A stretch of DNA of 63,847 nucleotides, filler included, from Rhabdomonas costata (taxonomy: Eukaryota): assembly GCA_019059605.1 (NCBI GenBank). It is 39 parts of 39 records of this genome, joined end to end, with 100 filler letters (N's around TTAATTAATTAA, not from the genome) between each part and the next. Parts side by side here need not be neighbours in the genome. Positions count along the whole stretch, not along the records: positions 13,135 to 14,674 come from JAHMHO010013480.1; 38 more parts are not named here. The stretch is one strand, 5' to 3'. Every line of letters starts with the position of its first letter. Position 1 is the stretch's first letter. Below, piece by piece: positions 4,811 to 53,442 of this stretch. Below the pieces are notes generated by a model, which had not been told where the DNA came from, searched no databases, and saw nothing but the letters and a program-made list of their open reading frames with translations. The position numbers and the translations under genes were made by a program.

Positions 4811-4943
4811 TCACACCCACANNNNNNNNNNNNNNNNNNNNNNNNNNNNNNNNNNNNNNNNNNNNTTAATTAATTAANNNNNNNNNNNNNNNNNNNNNNN
4901 NNNNNNNNNNNNNNNNNNNNNGGGTGGGGTGTGTTTGGGTTGG

Positions 4944-6582: not shown

Positions 6583-7737
6583 GTTTAAGTTTCACTACAA
6601 AAGTGAAGGCGAGCGCGTCTTCATATGTGTAGCTCACAAAGAAGTACAAATGAGGGTTGCCTTCGCCTTCCTCGACAGCGTGTCTCGTCAGCTGAGCCAA
6701 GCCTTCAACAGCCCCAAGAAACTCTTGAAAGACCGGGTGGTTTGTTAAGAATAAGTTACCTTGACTGTATATTTGAAGCCTCAAGTGAAAGATCATTCGA
6801 AAAATTAACAGCAATTAACAGGCATTTCGCCTTCTTGGGTTTTTGGGGGCCTTTCCTCCGCTATTGGATTTCGTCTTGCGTTTCACCGATGTTTGGTTTT
6901 AGCAAGAACTTCTGGAGGATGATAGATGAGGATGATAGTGTCCTTCCAGTCAGACCCACCAGAATCGACGAGAATTTTGTTGACTCCTTTGCAACCCTTT
7001 TTTCGAGTTGAGTACAGTGAAGATCTTATTGTTTTCCTTTGCCCTTCATGGTTTCCAGGAGTATCACAACAACCCCGCCAACGACAAGATCAGCAATCTC
7101 ACAAATGAGATCGCCGAGGTTAAGGACGTCATGATGGAAAACATTGGTGCCGTTTTTGGTGTTTGTTTGTTGGTTGAAGCATGGCTGCAGCACAGAAGCT
7201 GCTCGGAACCCGCTGCTGACTCAAACTTCCTTCGGACTTCTTTCGCTTGCCTGTAAAACGATTTGGTGTAGACACATGGAACCGGGGCAAAAAAAAAATC
7301 CCTTCAAATACACCCCCCCCCTTCTTGGCGTAGCATTTTTGGTCTCGTCAATTTGCATTTTTTCCAGACCTGCTGATCCATGATTGTTGTTTGCAGATCG
7401 CGTTCTGCAGAGAGGCGAGAAACTGGATGCGATGCAAGAGAAGTCTACCCAGCTCGCGGAGAACGCGCGAGTGTGCACGTTTCCTTCCTATCGCTGAGAA
7501 GTTGGTTTTTAATGGGTCAGCCACCGCTCTGCCGTATGACTTCAGGACTTCCACTCTTCGGCGGTCACGTTGAAGCGCAACTACTGCCTCAAGCACGCCA
7601 AGATAGTGGCCCTCATTGTGCTGATTGTCGTGGTGTGTATGACGCACACGACCGTTTGTTGTGCACAAGAACCGATGTTCGAGTTTTAGTATACTGTGCT
7701 CACTTTTTTCAGATCATCCTGATCGTTGTGCTGCTGA
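6583..7737 (+). CDS. VAMP7: Longin R-SNARE, VAMP7 family (exons 6583-6739, 7059-7146, 7397-7470, 7546-7632, 7713-7737)
   Basis: Longin motif FKFHY...FICVA...RVAFAFL; SNARE motif EIAEVKDVMMENIDRVLQRGEKLD; C-terminal TM helix; all introns GT-AG and phase-compatible. Confidence 0.93.
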
Positions 7738-9886: not shown

Positions 9887-11388
9887 ATCTCAACCATTAG
9901 CAGCATCAGGTCAGGGAAACTGATCCACCACGTCCTTTGCGTGTCCAGCGCGGACCAGAGCTTCTGGAAGGCCTCCAGGCACTTTCCACGGGCCTTTATC
10001 TGCCGCTGCTCGGTGAGGGTTGTCATGAACGACTGGATGATGATAGCCGCCAGCATCGGCACAATAATCAGAGAGACGAAGAAGTGGAGTCCAAAGGCGA
10101 ACACGGGGGCCCAGGCGTGCCCGCAATTGCCGAGGCTCGGGTCGCACCTCGGAGGCCCGTCCATCATCATGTCTCGCATGATGCCTGGCCTAAAGCAACA
10201 CGCAATGCTTGTTGGTTGGTAATGAGTACGATGGTCTGCGGAAAAATTCTTTTTATTTTGCCTTTCCAAACTAAGGAAACGTGAAGGACACTCGAACGGC
10301 GGGCCTTCCCGAATTGGAAGGCAACTAAGTGTACTTAAAACCTGTGGAACCAACACTATTTCGCAGAGGAGAGAAGGTGGGAAAATCAAAGCCTCCGTTT
10401 TTCGGTGCCCCCTCCCCCAATATCCAGGTTGGATAGTGATCACTATCCAACTACAGTTCGTTTAAAAGGACCGTCCAAAGGGTCGGGAAGGGGTCTGCAT
10501 CGGGTTGAAACACACGCCCTTTTTTCCCGCCCTTTCCCCGTTCACTGGATTTCAGTAGAAGACTTGGGTGTTAGAGGGCGACGTGCGCTCCTTGGAACAG
10601 CGTCCAGGATGTCTTGGGACGCGGAGCATAGCGGACCTCCGTGCCTCAGAAAGGCGATGAAAGGTTCCCCAGAGATTGCAACACAAAACACAAAAGAAAA
10701 TGAATTATTGTAGGTGCGAAGACCAGTCGCCGCCGCGGCCAAAGAAAGGGAAGGCACACAATCGGGGCATGCCCGTACAAACGAAGTGCCAGTTTCCACC
10801 GCGGAGATTAAACCAAAATCAAAGCGGTACTAAGGGATCTAAATCGAGGGTCTCTTCCATCATTACCGATAGTGCTTTCCAAAGAACTATTCAAGTTCGC
10901 TGAAAACTGCAACGCCGACTGAGTCAAAGCAAAAGGCAAAAGGCAGCGAACCAATTCTCTCCTGTGCTCATCACATAGCAGAGCAGTAGAGATGTCGGGA
11001 AATTCTCAAAATTGATGTGCTCCGTGAAGCTGTCCGTCCCAGCAGCATTCATGTTACCAAAGTAAAACATTGCCACAACCGCGAACATGCACAGCACCAC
11101 GAGCATCAGCACGAGAGTATTGAAGATCTGGGTCACAGCGGTTACCACGGCATGACACAGAGCAAGCACCCCGGTCAAGAAGGGAAGAGCTCTGAGGAGC
11201 CGTAGCACACGAAAGAAGGCAAACACGGAGCTCTGAAACGGGAATCCGGGGCCGCGGCCGTACGCGCAAAGGCACTGCTCGGCGATTCCAGAGACCACAA
11301 CGGAAAACGAAAGGAAGTTCCAGCGGTCTCTCCAGTACCCTTTCCACCCCATTCCAACAAAGATGGTCACCATCTCTAGAGTGTACAA
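9887..11388 (-). CDS. Four-domain voltage-gated cation (Cav-like) channel, repeat IV plus start of EF-hand tail (exons 10952-11388, about 9887-10189)
   Basis: GYWRDRWN (S2-S3), FRVLRLLR (S4), NFENFPTSLLLCYVMSTGENWPGIM (pore, Glu filter), NCG..S6 MLAAIIIQSF, LEAFQKLWSALD. Confidence 0.9.
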
Positions 11389-11983
11389 AAAAAANNNNNN
11401 NNNNNNNNNNNNNNNNNNNNNNNNNNNNNNNNNNNNNNTTAATTAATTAANNNNNNNNNNNNNNNNNNNNNNNNNNNNNNNNNNNNNNNNNNNNGTGGGT
11501 GTGGCACCAGTGCCCTGGACAACGAGGCCGAGCTGGAAGTCGTCACGGTATGGCGATTCTTCCCTGGGAGTGTCCAACTGTTTTCCTTGTTGCTGGTGGG
11601 TGAAAGGCGCCTGTTTTTGTCCTGTAGTCTGTTGTGTTTTGATATTGGGTGTCACTGCGGGAGTTTTTGGAGAGCAGGACCAAGACCAGGAGACCAGGAC
11701 AGCATTGCTGTGGGTTGTGCGCAATTTCGGTTCCTTGTGTTGGGCCTCTGGTTCCTCTGAGTTCCAGACACACGCAGTGATCACTGTGTACCATGAAATG
11801 GGGTGCGTTGAGGTAATGACGTCTGGTGAGAAGACTCCTACGTACTGCCAGCGCAGGGACACAGACACCTTTTGATACGCTGAACACCCTGTGCATTACA
11901 GTTAGTCATCCATTTTTGCTGGCTGAACCATCCGTTTCTCTTGGGACGCAAGCGCCCCGTCCAATGGCTTCTTTGCTGTGTAG

Positions 11984-12517: not shown

Positions 12518-13233
12518 GTTCCCCACATCCACACAGTGACTCACTTTTATTAAGGAGTCAGCAGCACTTGTTGAGTAGTATCCGCTCCAGAGTGACAAAA
12601 TGCACTGAGGCACTTTAACACGTGGGAAGCATCACCATAATCTGTCGGGAACAGTTCGGGCGGCTCAACCCCCAGGAGGGCTGCAGAGTGGAAAGGACTT
12701 TCGCCACCACCACCACCACAAGATTCTTCTTCATATCTCAATACGCCTCACTCAGAGTAGGCAGCAGGAAAGCAGGCAGGCATGGAGTCAGGCTGTACCA
12801 CCGAAGGTTGGGCGGGCAATCACACAACTTTGCCGTTTACTGTTTCTTTCGCCCTGTGGGCTTCGTGCTCGGCAGGTCTGACAAGCCCCATGCGGTCCAC
12901 ACCCACAGTGGCCTTCCCGCTCGAGCCCGAGGAGCAGGTTTATAGAATGTCCCGCCCCACCTCTGCACGCATTGCGCTTCTTTTCCTCGAGGCAAGGGTG
13001 CTGTCGCAGTTCAAAAGGTTCTCCTTGTCATGTANNNNNNNNNNNNNNNNNNNNNNNNNNNNNNNNNNNNNNNNNNNNTTAATTAATTAANNNNNNNNNN
13101 NNNNNNNNNNNNNNNNNNNNNNNNNNNNNNNNNNGTTGTTTTGGGCCTGACGCCGGAGGCGCGGGGACCGAGTCGGGTCACACCCGGGGTACCAGGGGAC
13201 CGAGTCACCAACCGCCAGGGAGTGGGGATAGAA

Positions 13234-13646
13234 GGAGGAGCGCAGCGACGACGTCAAGGAATAGGAACGAAGGAGCGGAGCGACTGAGTGACAGAATACA
13301 AGCAGAATACCCTGGTCTTGTGAACGAACGTACCGACTTATGTCGGGGAGTGAGTGAACAACGCATTTAGGGAGATGCGAACGCAGTGAGCATCGACCAG
13401 CTGAGTATTCCACTGTCGGGATTCTCACGTCCTCTCGAATCCCTCCCACCCAAAGACACGAGCGTAGCGAGTAGGATAGGTGAATGCATGCAAGCGCCTT
13501 ATGGCGGTGGAATGCATGAACCATCACATTTAGGAGGAATGATGCGAAGGCACTGAGCATCATGACGACCAGCTGAATACCCCACTTGTCTCTCCTCTCC
13601 ACTCCCCGCCATAAGGCGGTACGTGGAGATCCGACCAGGCGTAGCC
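13234..13646 (+). repeat. Cluster of structured DNA hairpins, including two diverged modules of about 100 bp (13318-13417, 13479-13590) and an inverted third hairpin (13596-13629)
   Basis: Shared blocks CATTTAGG, GATGCGAA.GCA.TGAGCATC and CGACCAGCTGA.TA..CCACT; TTAT-loop hairpins with compensatory stem changes. Confidence 0.85.
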
Positions 13647-13860
13647 ACAGCGAAGAACATACCCTTACGCTTAGACTTGGGTTGAAGGGTACGAAGCATG
13701 GGTGCGTCAGCGAGCCATGCGTAGTAGAGGGTTAGTGTCTGCGAGTTGAGGAGCGTTGGGAATCGGAGTCTTGCATCAGGGTAAGGTCACGTCTTGGTCC
13801 CTCGAGGCATCCCTTAGCCTTAGACACAGCTGGTTGGATGTTACGCCTTACACCCTAACT

Positions 13861-14674
13861 CACCACGACACCCCACAGACCCCTCGACCCCTCAACCCAA
13901 CACACAGAACCAGCACACAGACACCATGACACCAAGCTACAGCCATGACACCCACACCCAACATCCCGACATCCTGACCCCAACACCACGAACCCCAAAA
14001 CACGAACCTCAGAACCCAAACACACCCTACGCTACGAAACACAAGAAGCAACAGACTCAGCTTGACATCGCACAACACCTACCCTCAGACTCCGACGCAC
14101 TGACCCTCACCCTCCAACAACACGAAGCCCTGAACCCCACACAACCCCATGCATAACACCATGAACCCCTGACAGCCTGACACACTCCGACACACAAACC
14201 ATGAGACAACACAACAGGAAGGCCTTGAGACAGAGACAGAGTGAGCGTGGTAGCAGTGAGCATGGTAAGAGTGAGCATGGTAGCAGAGGCAGAGACCGTG
14301 ACACCGTAACACCATGACAGCCAGCAACCCAACGACAACGTGACACCGTAACCCCATGACCCACTGACACAACCAACGCCAACACCACCAACGCTACCAG
14401 TAACGCATCGCACCAACACACCCTCCGACACAACAACAGTGAGCATGGTTGAGACTAACACTACGCAAAGCACAAACAGTAACACCGATACCTACTACAC
14501 TACACTACACTACTACACTACACTACACAATACATACATACATAATATAATACACGCGCGTAAGGAACCCCAGGCACACACTACGAATAGAACCAGAGAG
14601 CATGGTTGAGGCATGGTTGACGGACACAGAGAGCATGGTTGCTACAGACCGCTGAACTGACACTACGACCCCCA
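13861..14674 (+). repeat. A+C-skewed repetitive tract with GAGCATGGT motifs, a 15-bp tandem repeat (14238-14286) and (TACAC)n (about 14496-14528)
   Basis: Strong depletion of T and G on the + strand; motif copies near 14258, 14273, 14451, 14598 and 14631. Confidence 0.8.
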
Positions 14675-16415: not shown

Positions 16416-17396
16416 TTTTTTGAAAAAATCAACAAGATTTTCTTTAAAATAATAGTGAAGTTTCCAAATTTGTACTTCAAATAATCGTATGTATATAACA
16501 AAAATAATAAAATTAATAAAAAATTTAATTACAGGTTCCGTAAAATCCGTAATCTTTATCTCCAAGAAATGATGAACCCAATACTCTAATTTTTGTGTAT
16601 TGTACAGTTGTAATTTATTTGATTTTAGTATTGTAACTAAATATGGAATATCATATACATCATCAACATATCGTTCCAAATTGTTACAATAATCTACTAC
16701 TTTTGTATGATCTTCTTCTGTAATTGTAATTGGAGATTCAAATTTTTCAATAACATTAATTTCTATATCATGTTGCAAAATAATATTCTCTTCTTTATGA
16801 ATAATTACAAGATCAATGATCTCGTTGTCATCAACTAAAATTAATATTTTAACAAGTTCATTTTTATTGTCAATGAAATTAATTTTCATTTTATCATCAA
16901 TAATAGAAGTGTCAATAATAAATTCATTGAGACCATTCTTAAGTTCTGTCTGATAAAATTTTTGTGAAAAGAATATTTCATCAATTTGTTTATGTTTATT
17001 TACAATGAATTCATATGGTTTTCCTTTTTTGAAAAATTGTAATACATCATACATAATCAATTGAAAACCGACGTAATCATTATATGTAACATCTTCTTTT
17101 TTTTCAACATCATATTTACAGAATTTGTATTGTGTATTGTAATGAACACATGTACAATTATAAACAGATGTAATTTTCTCTGGATACATATAAAATTCGT
17201 ATATTGGTGATGTAAGTTCAAGAAAAGAATCTTGAAACATCTTAATGACAGATGGAATCGGTTTTGTTAAACAATCCTGAATAAGATGTATATCCTTTTC
17301 AAATTCCTGTTTGTTTTGACAAATGAATTCAATTGTTTCTTTGTACAACGAAGAATTATAATAAGATTCATTCTCATTCACAATTTGAATCGCCAT
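16416..17396 (-). CDS. Hypothetical protein, intronless AT-rich ORF (3'-truncated), giant-virus-like
   Basis: More than 320 open codons in very AT-rich DNA; rich in I/K/N/Y/E; AAAATTGA upstream. Confidence 0.85.
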
Positions 17397-17454
17397 TGTT
17401 TATTTTATATTTTTGAAGTTTTTAATTATATATTTACTGTAATATAAATAAAAT

Positions 17455-17462
17455 TCAATTTT
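17455..17462 (-). promoter_or_regulatory. Mimiviridae-type early promoter AAAATTGA
   Basis: Exact octamer on the coding strand, about 59 nt upstream of the ATG at 17396, in a 65-bp intergenic gap. Confidence 0.65.
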
Positions 17463-17941
17463 TATTGTAATGCTTTTGATATTGTTTTTACTATTTTATT
17501 TATGGCCGGTTTATCTTTTTTATTAAATATACTAATCGAAAACATAATACATTCATATAACATTTGACCAATACTTGAACATGTCCAATGTATTATACCT
17601 ACATCTTCATATGCAGTGATCATACATTCATATACTATTTTTGGTATGAACGTTGAAACCCAACTTACAGTTTTGTCATTTTGCATATATATTTTTTTCC
17701 TATACCATATTTTATTTATATTTTCATCAATTACACGTCCATTTATTCTCTTTTTTATCGTAAAATTGTATTTTCTAAAAATATCATTAAGTTCAATATC
17801 ATCATTATTACTTATTTTTATAATTTCTATATCATCTTCATATTGAAGAACATAATATCTATAATTTTCTTTGTCATTAATATCTTTTATGTTAAGTATA
17901 TCACGTTTTCTAAAAATTTTATTTGATTGTATGTTTATCAT
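17462..17941 (-). CDS. Hypothetical protein (159 aa), intronless AT-rich ORF, giant-virus-like
   Basis: Complete ATG-TAA ORF in tandem with the next ORF; no Shine-Dalgarno sequence seen. Confidence 0.8.
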   Translation of the reverse strand: MINIQSNKIFRKRDILNIKDINDKENYRYYVLQYEDDIEIIKISNNDDIELNDIFRKYNFTIKKRINGRVIDENINKIWYRKKIYMQNDKTVSWVSTFIPKIVYECMITAYEDVGIIHWTCSSIGQMLYECIMFSISIFNKKDKPAINKIVKTISKALQ

Positions 17942-18387
17942 TTATAATATATATANNNNNNNNNNNNNNNNNNNNNNNNNNNNNNNNNNNNNNNNNNNNT
18001 TAATTAATTAANNNNNNNNNNNNNNNNNNNNNNNNNNNNNNNNNNNNNNNNNNNNGGTTGGGTGGGCGCAGAGAGAAAAGGAAAGGCTTGCGAGTGGAAG
18101 TTAGGCGTTACTGTGCGGAGAGGATTGGTTGAGACAAATTTGGGATTCACGTTAAACTTGGGCTTCGACACACACAAGAAGCAGGGCAGAGTCAGGCGGA
18201 AACGGTGTCACTTGATACCGGGCGATTCATAAAAGTGAGCCACTAAAGACAGCCGTATGCTACGAAGGGCTGTCTGAAAGCCTGTAAGTTGTAATACCAC
18301 TCTGAGCAAGTGGGATTGGGGGTCGATGTTCTTTTGACCCTGTTGACTCAATATCCGTCCACCCAACAACACTCACCAACCCCACAC

Positions 18388-22378: not shown

Positions 22379-22980
22379 CTGGTGGGTAAATGCAAAATGA
22401 GGCAGTGCAAGGGCGTATGCGAGGAGGAAAAGGCAGCGAGCAAGAGTCAGAACGAAGAGTTTTCGGATCTTCTTGCGGCTCGCCCTCGCCCTGCCCGCCA
22501 CTTCCGGCATCATTAAAGAGGACAAACCTCTTTTGCAAGCTCAGCTGCAGTGGGTTTTCGGCGCCCGCCGTGTCTTGCAATGCGGTCGTGCCGACAGTTG
22601 AGAAACCCGCCGTGACGGAAGGCACGGGCACCGCAGTCTCGGTGGAAGCCACCTCACGTGGGCCGCGGACAGCACGCACCCGTACCCTCCCGCACGCATC
22701 CGTCACCGTTGTGGTGAGCCGCGGGGCAGAAGGCAGTTGCTTTCCGCTGAAATCCCCACACCCACCAGAAATAGTTGTAGTTGCACAGATAGTCCCCGCA
22801 CCCCACCGTTTCAAAAACAACCAGCCCCCCCCTCCAATGGTCTAAAAAAACCCTCCGTAAATTTATTGGCAAGGNNNNNNNNNNNNNNNNNNNNNNNNNN
22901 NNNNNNNNNNNNNNNNNNTTAATTAATTAANNNNNNNNNNNNNNNNNNNNNNNNNNNNNNNNNNNNNNNNNNNNGGGTTT

Positions 22981-23028
22981 GGGTGTGGGTGTGGGTGTGG
23001 GTGTGGGTGTGGGTGTGGGTGTGGGTGT
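22981..23028 (+). repeat. (GGGTGT)8 hexamer repeat at contig start
   Basis: Read directly; either a microsatellite or a primer-derived concatemer. Confidence 0.8.
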
Positions 23029-23210
23029 GCTTGTGGTGAGAGTGAACGAGGTAAACTCCTCTGAACTCAGCAGCTAAATGATCTCATGCCTCACTGGAGT
23101 GACTGGCGTTTCGACCCCCGGCGGAGTTGTGGGCAATGTGCCATCTCCGCCTGCCTTGGACGCTCTTCAAGAGAGAGAGGGGGGGGGGGAGAAGACCACA
23201 AAAGAGACAC

Positions 23211-28340: not shown

Positions 28341-29577
28341 CATGCAGGCTGTGGATGAAGCAAGCTAATAGTTTTTGCACCACTCAAGTGAGAAAAGTTC
28401 TTGTCATAATACTGCACCCCTTCCCCAGGAGTTTCGACACTGTACCCCCAGTGGCGATACCCGAATTACGAAGCAATGTACGTACCGTTTCGGGGTCTGT
28501 AATTTGTCTCGAGTCTCGGGCGAGCGTGTGTGATGGAGGGGGAGTGCAGTTTCGTTTGCAACCCAATACTCTGCAGCACTAATCCTGTGTGAAGCGAGCG
28601 GAAAACTACTTGAGTACGGAGTTTGGGCGGGGACGCAGGGGTGGAGGCGAACTTGGAAAAACTATCCCTCACCCTCTCCTCTCCTGGGACACCTGCAAAA
28701 GGCGAATGTAGCTAACCTGCCACTGCTGCGCTGCGATGAACTGTGGGCATCTCTTTGGCTGAAGTCCAATCGGTCAGTGTGGCGACTTGAGGCTGATTTC
28801 TTCTGTGCTGCTCATTTCAATGCCGTCAATTGACCGTTTCAAACCTTGACCTGGAACCTCTCAAAATGCGGCCATTTGGTTGGTGGTGGTTGCAAGTCCC
28901 CACATGGTGGGTCTGCCGAAATGCATGCACCACACCCCTACAAGGGTTTCTCGCCCCAGTGTTGGGCGCCGAGTTGGGGAGGACACGGAGTTTCTTACAT
29001 TTTTGTACACGCGTTTTTGTACATTAGCCTGGGACGCGTGGGGCAGGCGGAGGGTCTTGGCCTGTTGTCTGGTCAGCCGGCACCCCACTTCTGACAAGAG
29101 CCATAGGACTCTCCGTGCGAGCACTCAGGCTGCGCACGTCTTAGGTTAGGGGCAGCCGTTCTTTCCATGATCGCTCATGCGTGTGTGTGTGTGTGTGTGT
29201 GTTTCTTTTCCGTCTTTTCATGTCACAAACATACACAAACGCGAACAAACAGACACAACTGTCCCTAGGTCAAAGAAACAAACACTCCCTTAGAGAACGT
29301 GGGAAGCAATAACTTCTCAGATCGTACAGTTGCGATACTCAATCCACGGGCTTCAACAAAGAAGATAAGCCCATTAATGTTGGGAAGGGAGGGGCAACCG
29401 CGGACCCAAAACCCCAACCACACCCAACACNNNNNNNNNNNNNNNNNNNNNNNNNNNNNNNNNNNNNNNNNNNNTTAATTAATTAANNNNNNNNNNNNNN
29501 NNNNNNNNNNNNNNNNNNNNNNNNNNNNNNGTGGTGGGGGTCTTCTAACGAAAACAAGCTGTGGGAAGGGAGCATGC

Positions 29578-32121: not shown

Positions 32122-33214
32122 GTGTGCTGCCTTGCCCCCCCCCCCATAACTTTTATGGCTCAAAAAATGCTTCCTTCGATGCTGGTGGGTGCAAGAATTA
32201 TTGCAATGCGGTGGTTTTAAGGTCGATAAAGCAGGAGTATGTGAGGCAAGTTAGTTGTGGACTAGCCTGCGTTCACCTCATGCACGTCACACATTCGCGC
32301 ACTTCCGTCCGCTCGGCTGTCTCTCTCTTCCAGAGGGTTTTTGTTGCCAGGCAGGTGGCTTTGACACAACCTAAAAGAATCAAGCTGGTGCTGTTCACAC
32401 TCCAATCCTGAGGTTATGCACTGAGGTTATAGATGTTGTAGGAAAGACATAAGGCTGTCTGTTGGCATTCCTCTCCAAAAAGATCGGGAACGTTCTCATC
32501 CTCAAGCATGAACCCGAGTTGGGCGCTCTCATCATCTTCTCTGGACGGTTCTCTGGTTTCGCTAAGTACTTTGTAAACGGGTTGTGCCCCTCAAAGAGTA
32601 GCGAAATGTTGTCCATTTGAAGAGGAGAATTTCCGTGGTGGGACATCTCGCAGCAAACCCTCGACCTTGTGCCCGTGGGGGCCTTTGCTGGGAGATGTCC
32701 CACCACACNNNNNNNNNNNNNNNNNNNNNNNNNNNNNNNNNNNNNNNNNNNNTTAATTAATTAANNNNNNNNNNNNNNNNNNNNNNNNNNNNNNNNNNNN
32801 NNNNNNNNGGGGGGTGTGTTTGGTGGTGGGGGTTAAATAGTACAGCGTTGTTATGGTGGTAGGAGTGGTAGGTTTATTTTAGGAACGGCCACCGCGTGTC
32901 GTGCCGCGGGTCCAGAGTGTGCGGGGACGTTGCATGGAAAGATAATGTCCGTCTTACGTGAAAGGAAACGACAAAAACCTAAAATCTAGGACTTGGGATG
33001 GCAGTTGAAATAACAGTTTTGTGGAGGACGGCGACGACCCTGCCCTCATTCACTGTGCACTATGGGAGGCTGCGGTTTTTGCACCTTGTCCAGTGAAACT
33101 TTGCAGGTTTTTTTTTTGCAGATCGCTTGGACACTCCCCTTCTCCTGTGCAGCAGCTCAACGGACCCTCCACCTTTCAGCCGATCAAAAAAAGAAGTCAA
33201 AAAATGGTCACAAC

Positions 33215-43536: not shown

Positions 43537-43920
43537 TCAGCGCGACTTCTTGCGCTTGCCCTGGGACGGCTTCTCCCCAGTGTTCTTCCAGTACAGCAGG
43601 AACTGCAGCACAATTACTGCGTTCAGGAAGCCATTCAGCAGGAACCCTGCCAGGATGGAGACATCCCGGGAGCCCACCCAGGTCGTCAGCACCCTGGCCG
43701 CACACCCGCCCCCGCTCAGAACAAAGGTGATCAGCGCAAGCTGGCCCGTGCTCTTAGCGCGGTAGTTCGCGAGGATCTGTGGCACCCGGCTGAACGCGGC
43801 CACGGGGATCTGCACCGCATTCATGAGGAAGGTGGTCAGGGGAAGGGGCATGGTGCCCGTCAGGACGCACCCAACCCAAGCAGCGTACGCCACGGGCAGG
43901 ACGACCATCACAGGCCCCAG
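43537..43920 (-). CDS. MPDU1: Mannose-P-dolichol utilization defect 1 (PQ-loop) protein, terminal exon
   Basis: SRVPQILANYRAKSTGQLALITFVLSGGGCAARVLTT...LNAVIVLQFLLYW and a basic C-terminus. Confidence 0.93.
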   Translation of the reverse strand: MGPVMVVLPVAYAAWVGCVLTGTMPLPLTTFLMNAVQIPVAAFSRVPQILANYRAKSTGQLALITFVLSGGGCAARVLTTWVGSRDVSILAGFLLNGFLNAVIVLQFLLYWKNTGEKPSQGKRKKSR

Positions 43921-44118
43921 CTGCAAAGCACGGGAAAGAGGAAAGAAACAAGCATGCCGACTTTTGGAATCGAACAATCCGAACAAGTGTACCACTTTCC
44001 AGTAAAGACAATAGCCGAGAAGTTTTCCTCAACAGCTGTTTCAGGGCCAAATGCTCCTTTCTCCTCATTGCATTTGGATAGTTCAGCAAACTGAAACCCG
44101 CCAACTGCTGGGAGACAA

Positions 44119-44282: not shown

Positions 44283-45821
44283 CACAGTCATCTCCGCCGC
44301 GTACGATGGAGCACTGTCTAAAGCCGCGTCGGTGCTGATCTCTGCGCAGCCTCCTTTGGCTGATCCCAAAGAAGCTGAGCCTGCCCTACGTGCTCTCCAC
44401 CCCTCAAGACCGGAGTCGGCCTATACCCGAGCCGTCTGCAATGTACTCCTCTGGTGATCATCTGGATTGTGAATTCGAACCGGCTGAAATCTTGAAAGCC
44501 GCACGCTCTTTCCCACCAGGCTCCACGGGGGGCCCCTCGGGATTGCGTCCGTCCCACATTGCAGAGGCGCTTAAGACGGACGATTCGGGTGAACTTGCAC
44601 AAGCTCTTGCCTCGTTGGCGACAGATCTTATCAATGGCCGTTTGCCAGAGGCGGCACGAGGGTGGTTTTGCGGGGCACGCTTAATCGGAATTCCCAAAAA
44701 GCCGAGTGGTGTCCGACCGATAGCAGTCGGCGAGACCCTTCGTCGCCTCTCAGCGAAGTGCCTTGTAGCACAAGCTCAGGGGTCCGCTGCAGAAGCTCTA
44801 CGTCCACAGCAGATGGGGGTGGATGTGCCTCAGGCAGCAGAAGTCCTCGCGCACGGAATCAGAGCTTGGGCACAGTCTGCTCGCGCTGATGAAGTTGCGC
44901 TGTTTGTGGATTTTTCTAATGCCTACAACTCCCTCGACCGCCAGCGCATGTTGGACGCAATCGCGACCTTTGCGCCACGCTTCTGGAAGTATGCATGGTA
45001 CTGCTACGGGGCCCCCTGCCCACTGATAGGTCGAGGCTTCACGCTTGAGTCTTCGGAAGGCACGCAGCAGGGAGATGTATGTGGCCCTCTTTTCTTCGCA
45101 CTCACACTCAAGCTGCTTCTTGATAAGCACCTCAAGGATAGCCCCACAGGCTGGTCTCGATGGTACTTGGACGACGGCACCCTGTGCGGCCACCGGGACA
45201 CTGTGGCAGCCATGTTCCGAGCCATTTGCGAGCATGCACCTGAAATTGGGTTGCATGTGAATCCTGCCAAGTGCAAGGTGTGGGGCCCTCACGCTGTGGC
45301 TGCCGATTGGCCGGTCCCTGTGGTTCCCTGGGACTCTGGGGTCAACGTGCTGGGCATTCCTGTGGGTTCTCGTGCATTTGTAGCAGGCGAGTGCGCTTCA
45401 GTGGTTTCTAAACTGTCCGAAGCGCTGAGACGGCTTCCACTGCTCGCGGATTCGTTTGTGGCATTTCATTTGCTCCGTAGCTGCCTGTCTGCCTGCCGTG
45501 TGACCCATCTTCTTCGAGCCCTTTCGTTCGACAGTGGAGCCTCTCTGGCAGACCAGGCGAGGCGGGCCATCAAAGATGCCCTGAATGGCGTGGTCGGGGC
45601 ACCTCTGTCGGAACAGCAGTGGGCACTCGCCAGTCTTCCTACCCGCTTGGGTGGCCTGGGCGTATTGGACCCTTCTTCTGTGCAGCCGGCTGCGCATCTT
45701 TCCTCTTTCCTGTCGACGTCGTTGGAGGCAATCACATTCCGCCTTCCTCAGCTGGACGTCAGTCACGGTCAGTTAATAGCCCTTGCTCAGTTGACACCTT
45801 CGGCACGCGCGTGGACCGAAG
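44283..45821 (+). mobile_element. Non-LTR retrotransposon, CRE/SLACS/Cnl1-like reverse transcriptase (internal fragment, one frameshift)
   Basis: GPSGLRPSHI, GARLIGIPKK..GVRPIAVGE.LRRL, DFSNAYNSLDR, GTQQGDVCGPLFF, WYLDDG, LGIPVGS, ASLPTRLGGLG; intronless. Confidence 0.92.
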
Positions 45822-47722: not shown

Positions 47723-48694
47723 CTGGGAGGCCAGCAGGCCCACAAAGAGCCCCACCCCAGCCAAGGAGTGGGAGGTGGAAGCGGAGGCGGCGCCGTGGTG
47801 CACGGCCAGGCTCGCAAGGATGCCCGCGGCCAGCCCCACTGCCACCCCAACGGCGCGCAGGGAGATCCACTTCTTCACCGGTGGGGGGCGGTGCTGGAAG
47901 TGCAGCAGGCCCTCATAGAAGTTGCTCACCGCAAACACCGCGTCGCACGGCCATCGGTGGGGGTGCCGCAGGTCCTCAGCACAGACCTTTTCGGGGTTGG
48001 GCCAAAGAAAGAAGACAATACTGTTGGCGTGACTGTATGGGATCAGGTTATGCCAATTCAGGGCAATGCCAAATGCCAAATCAATGCCAAAAGCTCACAC
48101 AAGTCCAGTCATTCCCCCAAAAAACTCATTACAAACCGGTGCGAGGAATGCCAAAACTGCAATAGCATGAAGGGTGAACCGGGGGAGGGGACTTTCTTGA
48201 GAGGTCTCGACCGTCTCTGTAAGCTGATGTTGCGGATGAAACTTTTGCAGCGGAACTCATGCGGTAGAAATGGAGGTGGAGGCGTGGAGACGTGCAGATT
48301 TCGTTTCCTAGTTTTATGAGCAACCACCCGCCCCCAACATACGTGATTGCGGATGCTGTACCACTGCACATCCTGGTAGGGCTCGACGAACAGATCCCTC
48401 CGCAGCTCGCTCACCAAAGGGGTCAGCGGGGCCTGGTATCGGGACCCCGAGAGCAGGCTCATGGGGAGGTACACCGTGCGGGCGTAGGACCACATCCGGG
48501 AGGGGTGAAAGGGCAGCCACCGCGGCAGCAGCCAGGACTCCACCAGGAGGGAGTTGAAGGCCTCCCACTGGAACACCCCCAGCACAGCGAGCCAAAACTT
48601 CCCCCACTGGGGAATCCCCACCACTCCCCCGCGGCTGCGGATCCAGTTCCGCGCCAGAACGGCCGCGGGGTGGCCGTGGGGAAGACCCATGATG
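47723..48694 (-). CDS. Oxidosqualene cyclase family protein (exons 48343-48694, about 47723-47986)
   Basis: ARNWIRSRGG...IPQWGKFWLAVLGVFQW...WLLPRWLPFHPSRMWSYARTVYLPMS...LRRDLFVEPY...W...RNHVCAEDL.HPH. Confidence 0.93.
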
Positions 48695-50478
48695 CTGCGC
48701 ACGAACAAAAAGGTCTACTAAACCCTTTGTCGCAACCGTCGTTTTTTGAGTCAGCACCTCACCGCATCCTAATTAACGCGAGAAAATACATGTACAATAG
48801 AAATGGTTACGCGTGGTTACCCTCCCCTGAGCTCGTCCAGAACTCCTTGGAACTGGAAGTGACCATGTCAGTGGAGAATCGGCCCGAGTCCCGCCCATTT
48901 CCACCCTTTGGAACCTGCACACCGTGATGTGCTCGGTATCGCTTGACGCGTTTCCTAACTTCTCAGCCCAGAACCCCCGAGGCGCATCACTGTATTGCAG
49001 AAGAACAGGTATAATGTTCGTGGATAAATTAAAAACAGGCTTGTGTCGACGAGGTATGCATTCTTGGACACAAGCCTGTTTTTAATTTACCCACAAACCN
49101 NNNNNNNNNNNNNNNNNNNNNNNNNNNNNNNNNNNNNNNNNNNTTAATTAATTAANNNNNNNNNNNNNNNNNNNNNNNNNNNNNNNNNNNNNNNNNNNNG
49201 TGCCCTTGCTGAATTCATTTCCCTTTTCCCAATTACCTTTTTCGCACATACGTTTCAGTCAAATCAAACCCCATTTACAACCGAAACACAGCTCAAAGCA
49301 CAAAAAAGGCATTGGGTGAAACAATAAAACCTGCGCTCGCGTAGGACCTGAGAACAGCCATGGCTCGGTAGCTCACGGATCCAAACAGCAAAAGTTGCAG
49401 GGAAACAGAAAAAGCAACCTGTGCGTCCAGAAAACTGCTAAAGGCAGAGTGAAGCCAAAAAGGGGTGAGGGTGGAATGAAAAAACCTCTTAGGTAAACTT
49501 CACACCGAGTCCCACAAATGCATTGAAGAAAACCAAGTACATTTAGCTCAAGACAGCAGGAAAATGGCCCGCATCACACGATAACTGCATTGAAAAGCAC
49601 CAACGCACCGTCAGGTGTCGGTAATTTCAGCCCAGAACAAAAGCCCATTCCAATGCAAACAACCACAGGTTCCCAGCATCAAGTTTTGATTTCTCGGAAA
49701 TCTTGATGAAGAACAGCTAGGATGAGGAAAACGCTGGGTGAACGGTGAAATACAGCACCCGTAAAGCCTGGTCAATACAAAATCATTCAAGGGCAATATA
49801 GACAGCAAGACGAAAAGTACAGCAAGGGACCCGAAACACACGAAAACAACAAGAAAACACCATCCATTCTGGACGGTGATTTTCCGGCACAAAGGCACCA
49901 ACGAAAAACGGACGGGCATGTAAGCAGGAAAGTCAATGCCCGGGGGAGGACCTGCAGCGTTTCGGTGTCCGGGAGGTCCTTTTGGGTGAAGGGTCTGAAA
50001 TCCGACAACCTGAGCAAGCGATTTTATCATGAAATTACAAGTAGAATCTGCAGCAGGTTGGTTGCGCAGGCTGAGAAGTACCAATGGATGCGAGCGACAC
50101 CACGGGTGCGGGCAGTCTTTGCACCAGCGTTGTGTCATATATCCCACTCCAGGCACTCCACGCAACGCCCAATGCGCTTCTAATTTCCATGGGCCATAAA
50201 ACGATGAGTCAGCGATATGCCATCAACTCTCGCCGGACATTGGGGCATCACCGGTCAGTCTCATCAAGAGTCGGTTTTTCTTCCTGAGAGTACGATGGTC
50301 ATTCTCAGGCAGAAGCAAAAGAGCAAAAGAACGACTTCCAAAAGGCTTCAGCTGAAAATAAAACAGCCGAAAATGAAACGGACGTTTGGGAAACAGGTGA
50401 CATCTAACGGCGGCTGAGAGCGGCACACAGCATAGCACCCACCGAACCTCGCGCAGGAAAAGCCAACACAGAACCAAC

Positions 50479-52377: not shown

Positions 52378-53442
52378 NNNNNNNNNNNNNNNNNNNNNNN
52401 NNNNNNNNNNNNNNNNNNNNNTTAATTAATTAANNNNNNNNNNNNNNNNNNNNNNNNNNNNNNNNNNNNNNNNNNNNGTGGTGGGTGTGTTTGGTGGGGG
52501 GTTGTTTAATTCCACTCCTGGGTTGTTTGAATTTGGTTTATGTATGAGCGTGGCTGTGGCTTCGCCCACGTTTTTGTATGGTTAGATTTGCTTTGATGGT
52601 AGAAATGCGATTGGGTTCCAATTTTCTCTCGTCTCAGTTTTCAAATACCGTCCGCAGACGGGGTGTGCGCCACTCGCTGGCCTGGGGTGAGTGACACCCT
52701 CACACCCATAAACGCACAGGGCTTGGCCCTGAAACGAATCCCGCCCATTCCAGTCCACAACTTTGACGCCATGTTCAAAGAAGAAGGGTTTACAAACGCA
52801 GCCGTGCTAAATGCATTTCCAACTAATTTCAGAACAGAGGAAATGCGTCGCTTCCACCGCTCTCAGCCTTCATGCACAGAAGAGGGGGGCATGAATGCCG
52901 TACCTTCGGCGGACGCTGCACAGGCCTCTGCTCTTCTTGGTCAGCGTGGGGCCGAAGTCATAGTCGTACAACCACCCATCCGCGCCGGTGTCCGAACCCT
53001 CGTAGACCGTCCTTTGAGGATTTGAGCACGACACTCATAAGTCCCGCAAGACACCCTTCGTCACCACTGTTCACAACTAGTGCAGAGATGTGGTTAAAAT
53101 ACCAAGTGAAGTGAAAGTCGAAGTCAAGCACTGGGAATGACAGCGATAACACTTCGACAAGCCCTCAAATTTGAACCTTATAAGCAAAAGATGTCCCAAA
53201 CAAAAACGTACTGATAGCCCTGGGCCTGTGAGAGGCGCGACACCCTCCTTCACCTCCTTCCCAACACCTTGTGGTGGACGATTTCTCTGCACGTTCCAGT
53301 GCCTTATGGGATGCACAAGGCAGGTCCGTTGTTGCGTTAATGATGTCACCCTATTTTGTTCTCTCCTCGAATTGTGAGCTTGGATGGGGCGCCAGTGCAC
53401 CCAATACAAAAACTAGAATAGGATGGGTAGTGCCCAGCGAAC

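What the first reader, a model, noticed from the sequence alone, without database searches (positions are those of the whole stretch)
13234..13646. Non-coding cassette of covarying ssDNA-type hairpins: three TTAT-loop GNA/GGA hairpins plus GA-zipper mini-hairpins
Seen: three hairpins share one architecture with different stem sequences. They are TTGT-GA-AC-GA-AC-GTA-CCGAC-TTAT-GTCGG-GGA-GT-GA-GT-GA-ACAA (13318-13361), GGT-GA-ATGCAT-GCA-AGCGCC-TTAT-GGCGGT-GGA-ATGCAT-GA-ACC (13479-13522) and, on the minus strand, TCTCCAC-GTA-CCGCC-TTAT-GGCGG-GGA-GTGGAGA (13596-13629). The first two are each followed by CATTTAGG, a second hairpin with a compensatory swap (GATGC-GA-AC-GCA-GT-GA-GCATC versus GATGC-GA-AG-GCA-CT-GA-GCATC), and CGACCAGCTGA. 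More GA-zipper/GNA-triloop hairpins lie at 13234-13252, 13264-13292 (G-GA-AC-GA-AG-GA-GC-GGA-GC-GA-CT-GA-GT-GA-C) and 13458-13472. Known: tandem sheared GA pairs, GNA triloops and paired GGA motifs stabilise DNA hairpins. Related motifs occur in single-strand initiation/primosome assembly signals, REP-like elements and mitochondrial double-hairpin elements. Inference: structure has been selected in single-stranded DNA. This is a candidate replication or processing signal of an extrachromosomal circle, organellar minichromosome or non-autonomous HUH-type element. I do not recognise it as a described family.
Basis: partly seen in the sequence, partly recalled or inferred. Interest (0 to 1): 0.82.

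Follow-up and report, generated by a model that had tools for sequence, protein, structure and literature searches.

The report
Orphan cassette of G·A-zippered DNA hairpins
A 400-base non-coding stretch holds eight small hairpins that keep one unusual architecture while their stem sequences differ, so folding of a single strand has been preserved, but what uses the hairpins cannot be told from this isolated 1.5-kb fragment.

Summary
All three TTAT-loop hairpins are exactly 44 nt. Pairwise they show 7, 4 and 7 double compensatory changes and no one-sided change. Five GNA-triloop hairpins with tandem G·A pairs lie in 413 nt; the other 38 contigs hold two small ones, and shuffles average 0.013. 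The stretch is non-coding. It matches no Rfam family and no plasmid, phage, E. coli or viral-contig sequence.

The context is poor. The window is a chain of about 1.54-kb amplicon-like contigs whose ends carry primer-derived G/T and A/C runs. Copy number, read depth, circularity and expression could not be tested.

One hairpin, a 21-24-nt cap, recurs letter for letter in at least 10 prokaryotic or metagenomic contexts. Most are REP-like intergenic hairpins and some lie just downstream of tRNA genes.

My best reading, at confidence 0.35, is a cluster of strand-specific hairpin repeats recognised by shape, like REP/BIME elements or single-strand initiation signals. The rivals are structured RNA, an ssDNA replicon origin, a neutral complex repeat and a prokaryotic contaminant. 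The finding is real and unusual, but it is an orphan.

The parts
13234..13252 (+). Mini-hairpin G-GA-G-GA-GC-GCA-GC-GA-C-GA-C, with core word GCGCAGC
   Evidence: 4 Watson-Crick pairs, 2 GA tandems; GCGCAGC at 13240-13246. The standard DNA energy model gives no fold.
13264..13292 (+). GA-zipper hairpin with a GGA triloop and core word GCGGAGC
   Evidence: 7 Watson-Crick pairs, 3 GA tandems. The standard DNA energy model gives no fold.
13311..13317 (+). CCTGGTC box, complementary to the GACCAG(G) boxes at 13395, 13567 and 13633. It may be a closing stem or a terminal inverted repeat.
   Evidence: Read. The whole-region folds pair this stretch with 13630-13643.
13318..13361 (+). H1: 44-nt TTAT-loop hairpin with 13 Watson-Crick pairs, 2 GA tandems and one GTA/GGA 3x3 loop
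   Evidence: -6.0 kcal/mol as DNA, z -1.5
13364..13371 (+). Conserved single-stranded linker CATTTAGG, unit 1
13370..13398 (+). Second hairpin of unit 1: GG-GA-GATGC-GA-AC-GCA-GT-GA-GCATC-GA-CC. Its core 21-24 nt recur in prokaryotic loci.
   Evidence: 9 Watson-Crick pairs, 2 GA tandems
13394..13414 (+). Conserved tail CGACCAGCTGAGTATTCCACT, unit 1
   Evidence: family D12, 86% identical to the unit 2 copy
13418..13443 (+). Plain 7-bp hairpin GGGATTC/GAATCCC in the spacer between the units
   Evidence: Read; present in the folds
13458..13472 (+). Mini-hairpin A-C-GA-GC-GTA-GC-GA-G-T, with core word GCGTAGC
   Evidence: 17 of 18 nt match a hairpin in L043.
13479..13522 (+). H2: 44-nt TTAT-loop hairpin with a GA tandem, a GCA/GGA loop and one G-G mismatch
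   Evidence: -11.9 kcal/mol as DNA, z -4.4
13527..13534 (+). Conserved linker CATTTAGG, unit 2
13533..13569 (+). Second hairpin of unit 2: 11 Watson-Crick pairs and 3 GA tandems. It has a compensatory AC/GT to AG/CT swap and symmetric AT/AT and GA-G/C-GA insertions relative to unit 1.
   Evidence: z -2.55
13566..13586 (+). Conserved tail CGACCAGCTGAATACCCCACT, unit 2
13591..13634 (-). H3: 44-nt TTAT-loop hairpin in inverted orientation, with 14 Watson-Crick pairs and two 3x3 G-N-A loops. Its core forms a 25-nt, 92% inverted repeat with H1.
   Evidence: pair I1; -13.3 kcal/mol, z -4.9
13632..13646 (+). Third CGACCAG box, followed by the mini-hairpin GGCGTAGCC
   Evidence: Read (GCGTAGC at 13639-13645)

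Best explanation
I read the stretch as a cluster of paralogous, non-coding hairpin modules whose shape is maintained on one strand.

Anatomy. There are two direct units of about 165 nt and a third, inverted, shorter one. A full unit has four parts: a 44-nt TTAT-capped hairpin; a conserved single-stranded linker (CATTTAGG); a GNA-capped hairpin stiffened by tandem G·A pairs; and a conserved tail (CGACCAG..GAATAC-like).

Proposed mechanism (inferred). The modules belong to a family of shape-recognised repeats that act when the DNA is single-stranded. They would work like bacterial REP/BIME elements or single-strand initiation signals. The very stable GCGNAGC-type mini-hairpins nucleate folding and exclude single-strand-binding protein. 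The conserved unpaired boxes beside the hairpins would be the sequence a strand-specific enzyme reads, such as an HUH-type nuclease/transposase or a primase. The local cluster grew by tandem and inverted duplication.

Shown: the architecture, the covariation, the strand bias, and the absence of coding or of any known RNA family.

Inferred: that the folded molecule is DNA rather than RNA, that a protein recognises it, and that other copies exist.
For: - Covariation. The three 44-nt hairpins are only 16/44, 26/44 and 21/44 identical. Where both members of a pair are Watson-Crick, the changes are double (7, 4 and 7) and never one-sided (0, 0 and 0).
- Symmetric insertions lengthen the second hairpin of unit 2 on both arms.
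- The linkers and tails are about 86-100% conserved while the stems differ.
- Strand specificity. All GA tandems and GNA loops of seven hairpins read on the plus strand. The complement would put TC opposite TC.
- Enrichment over the other 38 contigs and over shuffles.
- Four GCGNAGC words on the plus strand within about 410 nt. Such words are described as extraordinarily stable DNA mini-hairpins at the G4 origin, RSF1010 ssiA and N4 promoters (passages of PMC13037366).
- All loops are 3-nt GNA or TTAT. None is a GNRA or UNCG loop typical of RNA (read).
- Each GNA-capped hairpin is followed within 2-9 nt by GAATA or a one-letter variant. GAATA occurs 4 times here against 0.25 expected.
- The same 21-24-nt cap sits at the tip of REP-like intergenic hairpins in prokaryotes, in 45 places and 10 flank contexts.
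- Non-coding: no Pfam match and only one spurious phmmer hit. No Rfam match at E up to 10.
Against: - Only one locus is known. No second copy was found in the other 38 contigs or in viral contigs.
- The family character is assumed, because the assembly could not be searched.
- No Rep, HUH or primase gene is in reach, since the contig is 1.5 kb.
- REP elements and RAYT transposases are prokaryotic, while the neighbouring contigs look eukaryotic.
- No GTAG or CGTC tag sits at the hairpin ends.
- The standard energy model does not fold three of the mini-hairpins, and z-scores over the region are modest at -3 to -3.7.
- Sheared G·A tandems and 3x3 GNA/GGA loops are also stable in RNA, so a transcript could be the folded species.
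- In 4 prokaryotic loci the cap lies downstream of a tRNA gene on the same strand. That fits a transcript-level role as well as a DNA-level one.
- The descriptors were designed after seeing the sequence.
Confidence: 0.35

Rival explanations
1. It is a structured non-coding RNA, or a structured part of a transcript. The hairpins would fold in RNA, and the tandem sheared G·A pairs and GNA/GGA loops would be protein-binding platforms. The conserved linkers would be single-stranded recognition or processing sites.
For: - Covariation with conserved unpaired linkers is the classic signature of a structured RNA.
- The whole region folded as RNA gives z -3.68.
- Tandem G·A motifs are common in RNA (recalled).
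- In L006, L023, L010 and L038 the identical cap lies 34-136 nt downstream of a tRNA gene on the same strand, as a 3' trailer element would.
Against: - No Rfam family matches, even at E up to 10.
- The loops are GNA triloops and TTAT, not GNRA or UNCG.
- The G·A tandems have no 3-nt bulge, so they are not k-turns (read).
- H3 has its purine-rich internal loops on the opposite strand.
- No expression data could be obtained.
Confidence: 0.2
2. It is the origin or control region of a small single-stranded or hairpin-type replicon that was co-amplified from the sample. Candidates are an ssDNA virus or satellite, a plasmid, or an organellar minichromosome such as the GC-rich hairpin plasmids of Cladophorales chloroplasts. 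The hairpins would serve as priming or nicking signals.
For: - Mini-hairpin words of the GCGNAGC type are described at ssDNA initiation sites.
- Hairpins lie on both strands (H1 and H2 on plus, H3 on minus), as with paired initiation signals.
- The contig is gene-free, strand-asymmetric (A31 C31 G23 T15) and full of short iterated words such as AGTGAGCAT(GG).
- A eukaryotic precedent exists: 1-7 kb ssDNA hairpin plasmids of 51-60% GC, with abundant non-coding molecules (passages of bioRxiv 10.1101/145037).
- The sample was amplified and may be a mixture.
Against: - There is no Rep, capsid or organellar gene.
- There is no terminal overlap and no long inverted repeat in the 1540 bases; the longest inverted pair is 25 nt.
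- No viral-contig, phage or plasmid match.
- No canonical nonanucleotide in a loop was seen by eye; this was not tested formally.
- The GC content equals that of the neighbouring nuclear-looking contigs.
Confidence: 0.12
3. It is a neutral complex repeat, such as a spacer, subtelomeric or minisatellite-rich region. The palindromic units would arise and spread by slippage and duplication, and the structure would have no function.
For: - The rest of the contig is a patchwork of short degenerate tandem repeats: a CA-rich tract with an 8-mer-like period at 13850-14436, a 15-mer repeated 3 times at 14240-14286, and an 18-mer repeated twice.
- The units are local duplicates.
- Nearest-neighbour z-scores are modest.
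Against: - Fold-back or slippage makes Watson-Crick palindromes, not arms that put GA opposite GA at 14 tandems on one strand.
- One-sided changes are absent (0 of 18 changed pairs).
- The linkers are conserved while the stems are replaced.
- The shuffle and between-contig controls argue against it.
Confidence: 0.15
4. It is a prokaryotic contaminant: a BIME-like intergenic cluster of REP-type hairpins from a bacterium or archaeon in the amplified sample.
For: - 24 nt of the unit 1 second hairpin are identical to 9 loci of a Bradyrhizobium-type intergenic element. 17 of 18 nt of the 13455-13472 hairpin match L043.
- Similar GA-zipper hairpins occur in prokaryotic loci: 17 further ones in 223 kb.
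- Long hairpin-rich non-coding stretches exist there, for example L031.
- The sample was amplified, and a 22% GC contig in the window shows heterogeneity.
Against: - Similarity stops at the hairpin; no flank matches.
- None of the 8 genome-contig loci, from one genome for each of 185,579 species, shares the linkers.
- 1.5 kb without a gene and a 580-nt tract of 80% A+C are unlike prokaryotic DNA.
- No E. coli or plasmid match.
Confidence: 0.1
5. It is an artefact of whole-genome amplification or assembly, that is, chimeric or template-switch products.
For: - The contigs are amplicon-like, with primer-derived ends.
- A 12-nt primer-like word lies inside this contig at 14016-14027.
- Strand-displacing amplification is known to make inverted chimeras (recalled).
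Against: - Artefactual inverted or direct copies would be identical. Here the copies are diverged (16-26 of 44 identical) with compensated stems.
- Non-Watson-Crick G·A symmetry cannot come from copying.
- The internal primer-like word lies 370 nt away from the cassette.
Confidence: 0.05

Closest known systems
GCGNAGC / GCGNNAGC DNA mini-hairpins at single-strand initiation and promoter sites (phage G4 complementary-strand origin, RSF1010 ssiA, phage N4 virion RNA polymerase promoters)
   Same: The cassette holds GCGCAGC, GCGGAGC and GCGTAGC (twice) on one strand. These are the words the review describes as extraordinarily stable mini-hairpins that bind SSB poorly and lie where primases or a polymerase start on ssDNA (passages of PMC13037366). 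GCGGAGC with a GGA loop is the N4 type. A ColE1-type vector backbone primer printed in PMC6125127 also carries the C-GA-GC-GCA-GC-GA-G word. That this backbone stretch is a primosome assembly site is recalled, not checked.
   Different: The known cases are single hairpins in phage or plasmid replicons with known enzymes. Here there are eight or nine hairpins in tandem units, with 44-nt TTAT hairpins that have no described counterpart. No replicon genes are present, and the neighbourhood is probably eukaryotic. No sequence match to plasmids or phages.
REP / BIME (REPIN) elements of bacteria and their RAYT transposases
   Same: Both are short imperfect palindromes of 20-40 bp, clustered in direct and inverted orientation and separated by conserved linkers. 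Both have strand-specific mismatches and are thought to be recognised as folded single strands. The identical 21-24-nt cap sits at the tip of a REP-like three-hairpin element of Bradyrhizobium-type genomes.
   Different: No GTAG or CGTC tag sits at the hairpin ends; that criterion comes from the search listing and abstract of PMC3733652. The host looks eukaryotic. Copy number and an associated transposase could not be tested. In five prokaryotic genomes the cap core is present only 1-3 times.
Helitron 3'-terminal hairpins (recalled)
   Same: Both have a short GC-rich hairpin whose sequence varies between families while its position before a conserved short terminal word is kept. Both are used by an HUH Rep on single-stranded DNA. 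Here each second hairpin is followed by ..CAGCTGA.., which contains a CTRR-type word.
   Different: CTGA is followed by G or A, not by the T of an A|T target. No 5' TC end, Rep/helicase gene or element boundary could be defined. Tandem G·A pairs are not a described Helitron feature.
Organellar hairpin elements: mitochondrial double-hairpin elements, sponge repetitive hairpin-forming elements, and Cladophorales chloroplast hairpin plasmids
   Same: They are small mobile or repeated hairpins in eukaryotes, in the last case on 1-7 kb GC-rich ssDNA molecules with conserved non-coding motifs (the listing only for PMC2800124 and the DHE papers, passages for 10.1101/145037).
   Different: No organellar gene or long inverted repeat is on the contig. 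As far as I recall, those elements have Watson-Crick stems without G·A zippers. Their motif logos are in figures that are not held, so no comparison was possible.
K-turn / box C/D type RNA motifs (recalled)
   Same: Both have tandem sheared G·A pairs between two helices. Unit 2 has an ATGATGC...CTGA arrangement.
   Different: There is no 3-nt bulge. The box spacing is 8-30 nt, not 60 nt or more. No Rfam hit.

Membership tests
REP/BIME (REPIN) elements | Imperfect palindromes of about 20-40 bp, clustered with conserved linkers in direct and inverted orientation | tested here: met
   Hairpins of 15-44 nt; two direct units and one inverted; conserved linkers
REP/BIME (REPIN) elements | GTAG or CGTC tag at one end of the palindrome (PMC3733652, listing and abstract only) | tested here: not met
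   H1, H2 and H3 begin with TTGT, GGTG and TCGG and end with ACAA, AACC and GAGA. GTAG occurs only inside or beside mini-hairpins.
REP/BIME (REPIN) elements | Tens to hundreds of copies per genome and a RAYT gene; prokaryotic host | not testable with these tools
   No genome is held for the window. The other 38 contigs have no copy. The neighbouring contigs look eukaryotic.
Single-strand initiation signals / mini-hairpin DNA | GCGNAGC or GCGNNAGC word able to form the mini-hairpin | tested here: met
   Four GCGNAGC words on the plus strand between 13240 and 13645; the definition is
Single-strand initiation signals / mini-hairpin DNA | Location in the origin of a replicon that passes through an ssDNA stage; priming by a primase or polymerase | not testable with these tools
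   No replicon genes on the 1540-bp contig; no match to plasmids, phages or viral contigs
Helitron terminus | Hairpin about 10-12 nt before a 3' CTRR end that abuts a host T; 5' TC end (recalled) | tested here: inconclusive
   CTGA lies 6-9 nt after the second hairpins but is followed by G (unit 1) or A (unit 2). No element boundaries can be defined.
Circular or hairpin minichromosome (dinoflagellate minicircle, Cladophorales hairpin plasmid) | Terminal overlap (circle) or a long inverted repeat spanning the molecule; organellar gene or shared core | tested here: not met
   No terminal direct repeat and no inverted repeat longer than 25 nt; no gene. The contig is an amplicon, so the whole molecule is not seen.
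K-turn / box C/D RNA | Three-nucleotide bulge followed by tandem G·A pairs; C and D boxes at the two ends of a 60-100 nt RNA | tested here: not met
   The G·A tandems are symmetric 2x2 loops without a bulge; no Rfam match at E up to 10
Any Rfam family (including self-cleaving ribozymes, snRNA, snoRNA) | Covariance-model match | tested here: not met
   0 matches at gathering score in the window and 0 at E up to 10 on the contig

The most novel reading that the evidence does not exclude
The cassette is a member of an undescribed class of strand-specific DNA signals that spans domains of life. The class would be built from a small kit of hyper-stable parts: GNA triloops, tandem sheared G·A pairs and paired GNA/GGA loops. 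One part, the 21-24-nt cap GATGC-GA-AC-GCA-GT-GA-GCATC, recurs letter for letter in a eukaryote-associated contig, in alphaproteobacterial REP-like elements, in candidate-phyla bacteria and in archaeon-like contigs, often just downstream of tRNA genes. The modules would mark DNA that is handled as a single strand, for example the ends of small mobile elements that integrate at tRNA genes, or priming sites. The eukaryotic cassette would be the first such element outside prokaryotes.
Probability: 0.15. Interest if true: 0.8.

Novelty: new variant of a known kind. Interest (0 to 1): 0.55.

Why it matters
Hairpins held together by sheared G·A pairs and GNA loops are well studied in the test tube. 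Known natural cases are a handful of phage and plasmid initiation sites. A natural cassette in which this architecture is kept through complete replacement of the stems would be direct evolutionary evidence that cells or mobile elements read such non-canonical DNA or RNA shapes.

If the element is multi-copy in a eukaryote, it would point to a REP-like system recognised by shape, or to an ssDNA replicon, in a lineage with no sequenced close relative. The letter-for-letter recurrence of one cap in many prokaryotic contexts suggests a reusable structural part that has not been catalogued.

If instead it is a single orphan locus, it remains a curiosity.

Tried and rejected
- Own-genome search: no genome is held.

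**Searches that found nothing**
- Rfam at gathering score on the window and at E up to 10 on the contig.
- tRNA scan of the window.
- blastn of the contig against plasmids and phages, and of 13145-13860 against E. coli genomes.
- Viral-contig scans with the H1/H3 core, the 21-mer cap and the conserved tail.
- Similarity to the other 38 contigs: only short primer-like CA or GT runs.
- Dinoflagellate spliced-leader motif in the window: 0 matches.

**Coding potential**
- The 199-codon open frame on the minus strand over the cassette has no Pfam match. In one search, 100 of the 148 open frames of at least 110 codons were scanned.
- One phmmer hit among 1.84 billion proteins was a 20-residue match to a repeated motif of a bacterial lipoprotein. 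I rejected it as spurious.

**Organism**
- The best relatives of an oxidosqualene cyclase fragment and of a reverse transcriptase are only about 50-55% identical. No lineage could be named.

**Literature**
- Literal searches for the cap core found 0 papers.
- Searches for GAGCGNAGCGAG words found 46 papers; the one I opened (PMC6125127) prints the word in a plasmid-backbone primer.
- Word searches for G·A hairpin repeats gave only background papers.
- I found no description of this cassette in these five searches. Supplements were not opened.

**Readings considered and dropped**
- Hammerhead or other ribozyme (no Rfam hit).
- Integron attC sites (prokaryotic; spacing too short; no R' or R'' words seen by eye).
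- CRESS-type nonanucleotide. GAGTATTCC in unit 1 resembles it, but unit 2 does not keep it or a stem around it.
- H/ACA snoRNA (no H or ACA boxes in register).
Full report
**1. What the window is.**
The 63,847 bases are not one locus. They are 39 pieces of 1538-1553 bases, sorted by length and joined by a fixed linker of 44 N, a 12-base all-frame stop word and 44 N. The finding lies in the piece 13135-14674 (1540 bases; A 31%, C 31%, G 23%, T 15%).

The pieces look like single amplification products.
- 27 of 39 begin with a G/T-only run of at least 10 bases.
- 21 of 39 end with an A/C-only run of at least 10 bases.
- Four begin with ..GGGTGTGTTTGG followed by such a run.
- An 18-base primer-like word that I recalled matches contig ends, with up to 3 mismatches, in 5 of its 6 matches.

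From this I infer that the DNA was whole-genome amplified with primers carrying degenerate G/T tails. The kit name is only a recollection.

This has three consequences:
- The flanks of the cassette cannot be extended.
- Read depth would be distorted.
- The sample may hold more than one organism. One piece has 22% GC.

Other pieces encode fragments of a reverse transcriptase, an oxidosqualene cyclase, an ion channel and a PQ-loop protein (on 100 of the 148 open frames of at least 110 codons). Their best relatives are only about 50-55% identical. The bulk is therefore a eukaryote without sequenced close relatives.

**2. The observation.**
H3 extends to 13591-13634, so all three TTAT hairpins are exactly 44 nt with the loop at positions 21-24.

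Laid on one another, the three hairpins are only 16/44, 26/44 and 21/44 identical. Where both members of a pair are Watson-Crick, the differences are always on both sides (7, 4 and 7 positions) and never on one side (0, 0 and 0). Of the 24 non-Watson-Crick positions, 20 are G·A type, 2 are T·G and 2 are G·G.

The second hairpins are longer than first described:
- Unit 1: GG-GA-GATGC-GA-AC-GCA-GT-GA-GCATC-GA-CC (13370-13398).
- Unit 2: G-GA-G-GA-ATGATGC-GA-AG-GCA-CT-GA-GCATCAT-GA-C-GA-C (13533-13569).

In addition, an AT/AT pair of base pairs and a further G-GA/GA-C step were inserted symmetrically on both arms.

Between the hairpins, the unpaired CATTTAGG and the tail CGACCAGCTGA(R)TA..CCACT are conserved. 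CGACCAG occurs a third time right after H3. CCTGGTC before H1 is its complement.

Each GNA-capped hairpin is followed within 2-9 nt by GAATA or a one-letter variant. GAATA occurs 4 times here against 0.25 expected (I noticed this pattern after the fact).

**3. Is it more than chance?**
- A strict descriptor (GNA triloop, at least 3 Watson-Crick pairs, at least one GA/GA tandem flanked by pairs) finds 5 hairpins in the 413 bases, all on the plus strand.
- The same descriptor finds 2 minimal ones in the other 38 pieces over both strands.
- 2000 dinucleotide shuffles of the region give a mean of 0.013 and never more than 1.
- With at least 8 pairs and at least one non-canonical motif, the only 4 hits in the whole window are in the finding.
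- GCGNAGC occurs 44 times in the window against 27 expected, four of them on the plus strand of the cassette.

Two caveats apply. The descriptors were written after seeing the sequence. Ordinary nearest-neighbour folding is unimpressed: the whole region scores z about -3 as DNA on either strand and -3.7 as RNA, and sliding windows score mostly -1 to -3.7. Three mini-hairpins do not fold at all in the DNA model. Their reality therefore rests on published chemistry of GCGNAGC mini-hairpins and on the exact Watson-Crick complementarity of the dinucleotides between the GA steps.

**4. What it is not.**
- It is not coding. The longest open frame, 199 codons on the minus strand, has no Pfam match and only a spurious phmmer hit.
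- It is not a known RNA family and not a tRNA.
- It is not a plasmid, phage, E. coli or viral-contig sequence.
- It is not repeated in the other 38 pieces.
- It is not an amplification artefact. The copies are diverged and compensated, and copying cannot create G·A symmetry.
- The contig shows no terminal overlap and no inverted repeat longer than 25 nt. Nothing indicates a circle or a hairpin chromosome, although only an amplicon is seen.

**5. An unexpected relative.**
The one metagenome scan and the one genome scan, both with the 21-mer cap, returned 35 and 8 loci. That makes 45 occurrences in 10 flank contexts.
- 31 occurrences are one alphaproteobacterial (Bradyrhizobium-type) three-hairpin intergenic element, in which the cap is the tip of the middle hairpin. 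Nine of these loci share 24 nt with the window.
- The other contexts are unrelated to each other.
- In L006, L023, L010 and L038 the cap lies 34-136 nt downstream of a tRNA gene on the same strand.
- In L031, GA-zipper hairpins of the same build alternate with repeated 3' fragments of a tRNA-Lys gene.
- Seventeen further hairpins of the C-GA-GC-GNA-GC-GA-G kind occur in the 223 kb of these loci.
- The cap core occurs only 1-3 times in each of five genomes.

I could not compute an exact chance expectation for the collections. By rough arithmetic, about one chance hit is expected, so ten contexts look like real recurrence of a favoured part. At least one context (L014/L042) may be coding and accidental. 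Similarity to the window never extends beyond the hairpin. This is shared design, not shared descent of the locus.

**6. How it most likely works.**
Shown: a single strand has been under selection to keep a set of hairpins whose stability depends on purine-purine pairs, next to conserved unpaired words.

Inferred: the folded molecule is DNA. The loops are GNA and TTAT rather than RNA-type tetraloops. Four canonical mini-hairpin words are present. By my reading, 7 of the 14 GA tandems sit in the pyrimidine-GA-purine context on both strands; I recall that context as the stable one for DNA. On this reading the modules are shape-recognised repeats of the REP/BIME or initiation-signal kind. The hairpins would act as fold nuclei that exclude SSB, and the CGACCAG/GAATAC words would be the read-out for a strand-specific enzyme. 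I put this at 0.35.

The rivals:
- A structured RNA (0.2) explains the covariation and conserved linkers equally well, and fits the position of the cap downstream of tRNA genes.
- An ssDNA replicon or organellar minichromosome origin (0.12) has a eukaryotic precedent in the Cladophorales hairpin plasmids, but no positive evidence here.
- A neutral complex repeat (0.15) fits the repeat-rich rest of the contig but not the G·A symmetry.
- A prokaryotic contaminant (0.1) and an artefact (0.05) are less likely.

**7. Comparison and novelty.**
The parts are known: mini-hairpins, sheared G·A tandems and paired GNA/GGA loops. Shape-recognised hairpin repeats are also known. The following I could not find in Rfam or in five literature searches (supplements not seen):
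- the 44-nt TTAT hairpin;
- the two-hairpin unit with its conserved boxes;
- the occurrence in a probably eukaryotic setting.

I rate it a new variant of a known kind. It fails the REP tag test and the k-turn test, and the Helitron test is inconclusive.

Noticed in passing
window 1-63847 (linkers at, for example, 13035-13134): The window is a chain of 39 contigs of 1538-1553 bases, sorted by length. They are joined by 44 N, a 12-base all-frame stop word and 44 N. Features spanning a linker are not real neighbours.
   Followed up: yes
contig ends throughout, e.g. 4922-4943, 32809-32834, 52478-52507, 55756-55784, 29404-29430: 27 of 39 contigs start with a G/T-only run of at least 10 bases, and 21 of 39 end with an A/C-only run of at least 10. 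Four start with ..GGGTGTGTTTGG. These are remnants of degenerate amplification primers, so the assembly comes from whole-genome-amplified DNA.
   Followed up: yes
window 13850-14436 and 14229-14674: The rest of the finding's contig is gene-free repeat DNA. It has a tract of 80% A+C with an 8-mer-like period (CACCRTGA). It has a 15-mer, AGTGAGCATGGTAGC, repeated 3 times (14240-14286), with further GAGCATGGTTG copies. It also has an 18-mer repeated twice (14492-14527). The word AGTGAGCAT also sits in the unit 1 second hairpin. A 12-base primer-like word lies internally at 14016-14027, which may mark a chimeric junction.
   Followed up: partly
window 13435-13452: TCGAATCCCTCCCACCCA resembles the T-loop-to-3'-end part of a tRNA, without the 5' half. 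Such fragments mark integration sites beside tRNA genes in L031. Here it may be chance.
   Followed up: no
window 16416-17955: This contig has 22% GC and two long open frames in the standard code (328 and 159 codons, rich in N, K, I, E and D) without a Pfam match. It probably comes from a different genome in the sample, or from an AT-rich mobile or viral element.
   Followed up: partly
window 22975-23029: A 55-base G/T-only run, GGGTTT followed by (GGGTGT) about 9 times, lies at a contig start. It looks telomere-like but has the polarity and position of the primer-derived runs, so it is probably an amplification product.
   Followed up: partly
window 44339-45820 (+), 48112-48714 (-), 10927-11394 (-), 43540-44028 (-): These are fragments of a reverse transcriptase (RVT_1), an oxidosqualene/squalene cyclase, an ion-transport protein and a PQ-loop protein. 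The best database relatives of the first two are only about 50-55% identical, mostly from marine metagenome assemblies.
   Followed up: partly
window 6667-6691 (-): This is the only other hairpin in the window with two GA/GA tandems (CTGACGAGACACGCTGTCGAGGAAG, 7 pairs). It is isolated and unlike the cassette.
   Followed up: no
L006 6224-6350, L023 1715-1943, L010 706-887, L038 2702-2888: In four prokaryotic or metagenomic loci the identical 21-mer cap lies 34-136 nt downstream of a tRNA gene (Arg, Arg, Gly, Thr) on the same strand. There it forms the tip of a longer hairpin.
   Followed up: partly
L031 1677-2200: A tRNA-Lys gene is followed by repeated copies of its own 3' end. These alternate with GA-zipper hairpins such as GTGAGCGAGCGRAGCGAGCGAAC and CTGC-GA-AC-GATA-GT-GA-GCAG. 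It looks like serial integration scars of small hairpin-bearing elements.
   Followed up: no
L007 1-1292: An AT-rich metagenome contig holds a 299-bp tandem repeat that carries the 21-mer cap twice. It also has a shortened compensated variant, GATGC-GA-C-GCA-G-GA-GCATC, at 1020-1038. The organism is unknown.
   Followed up: no
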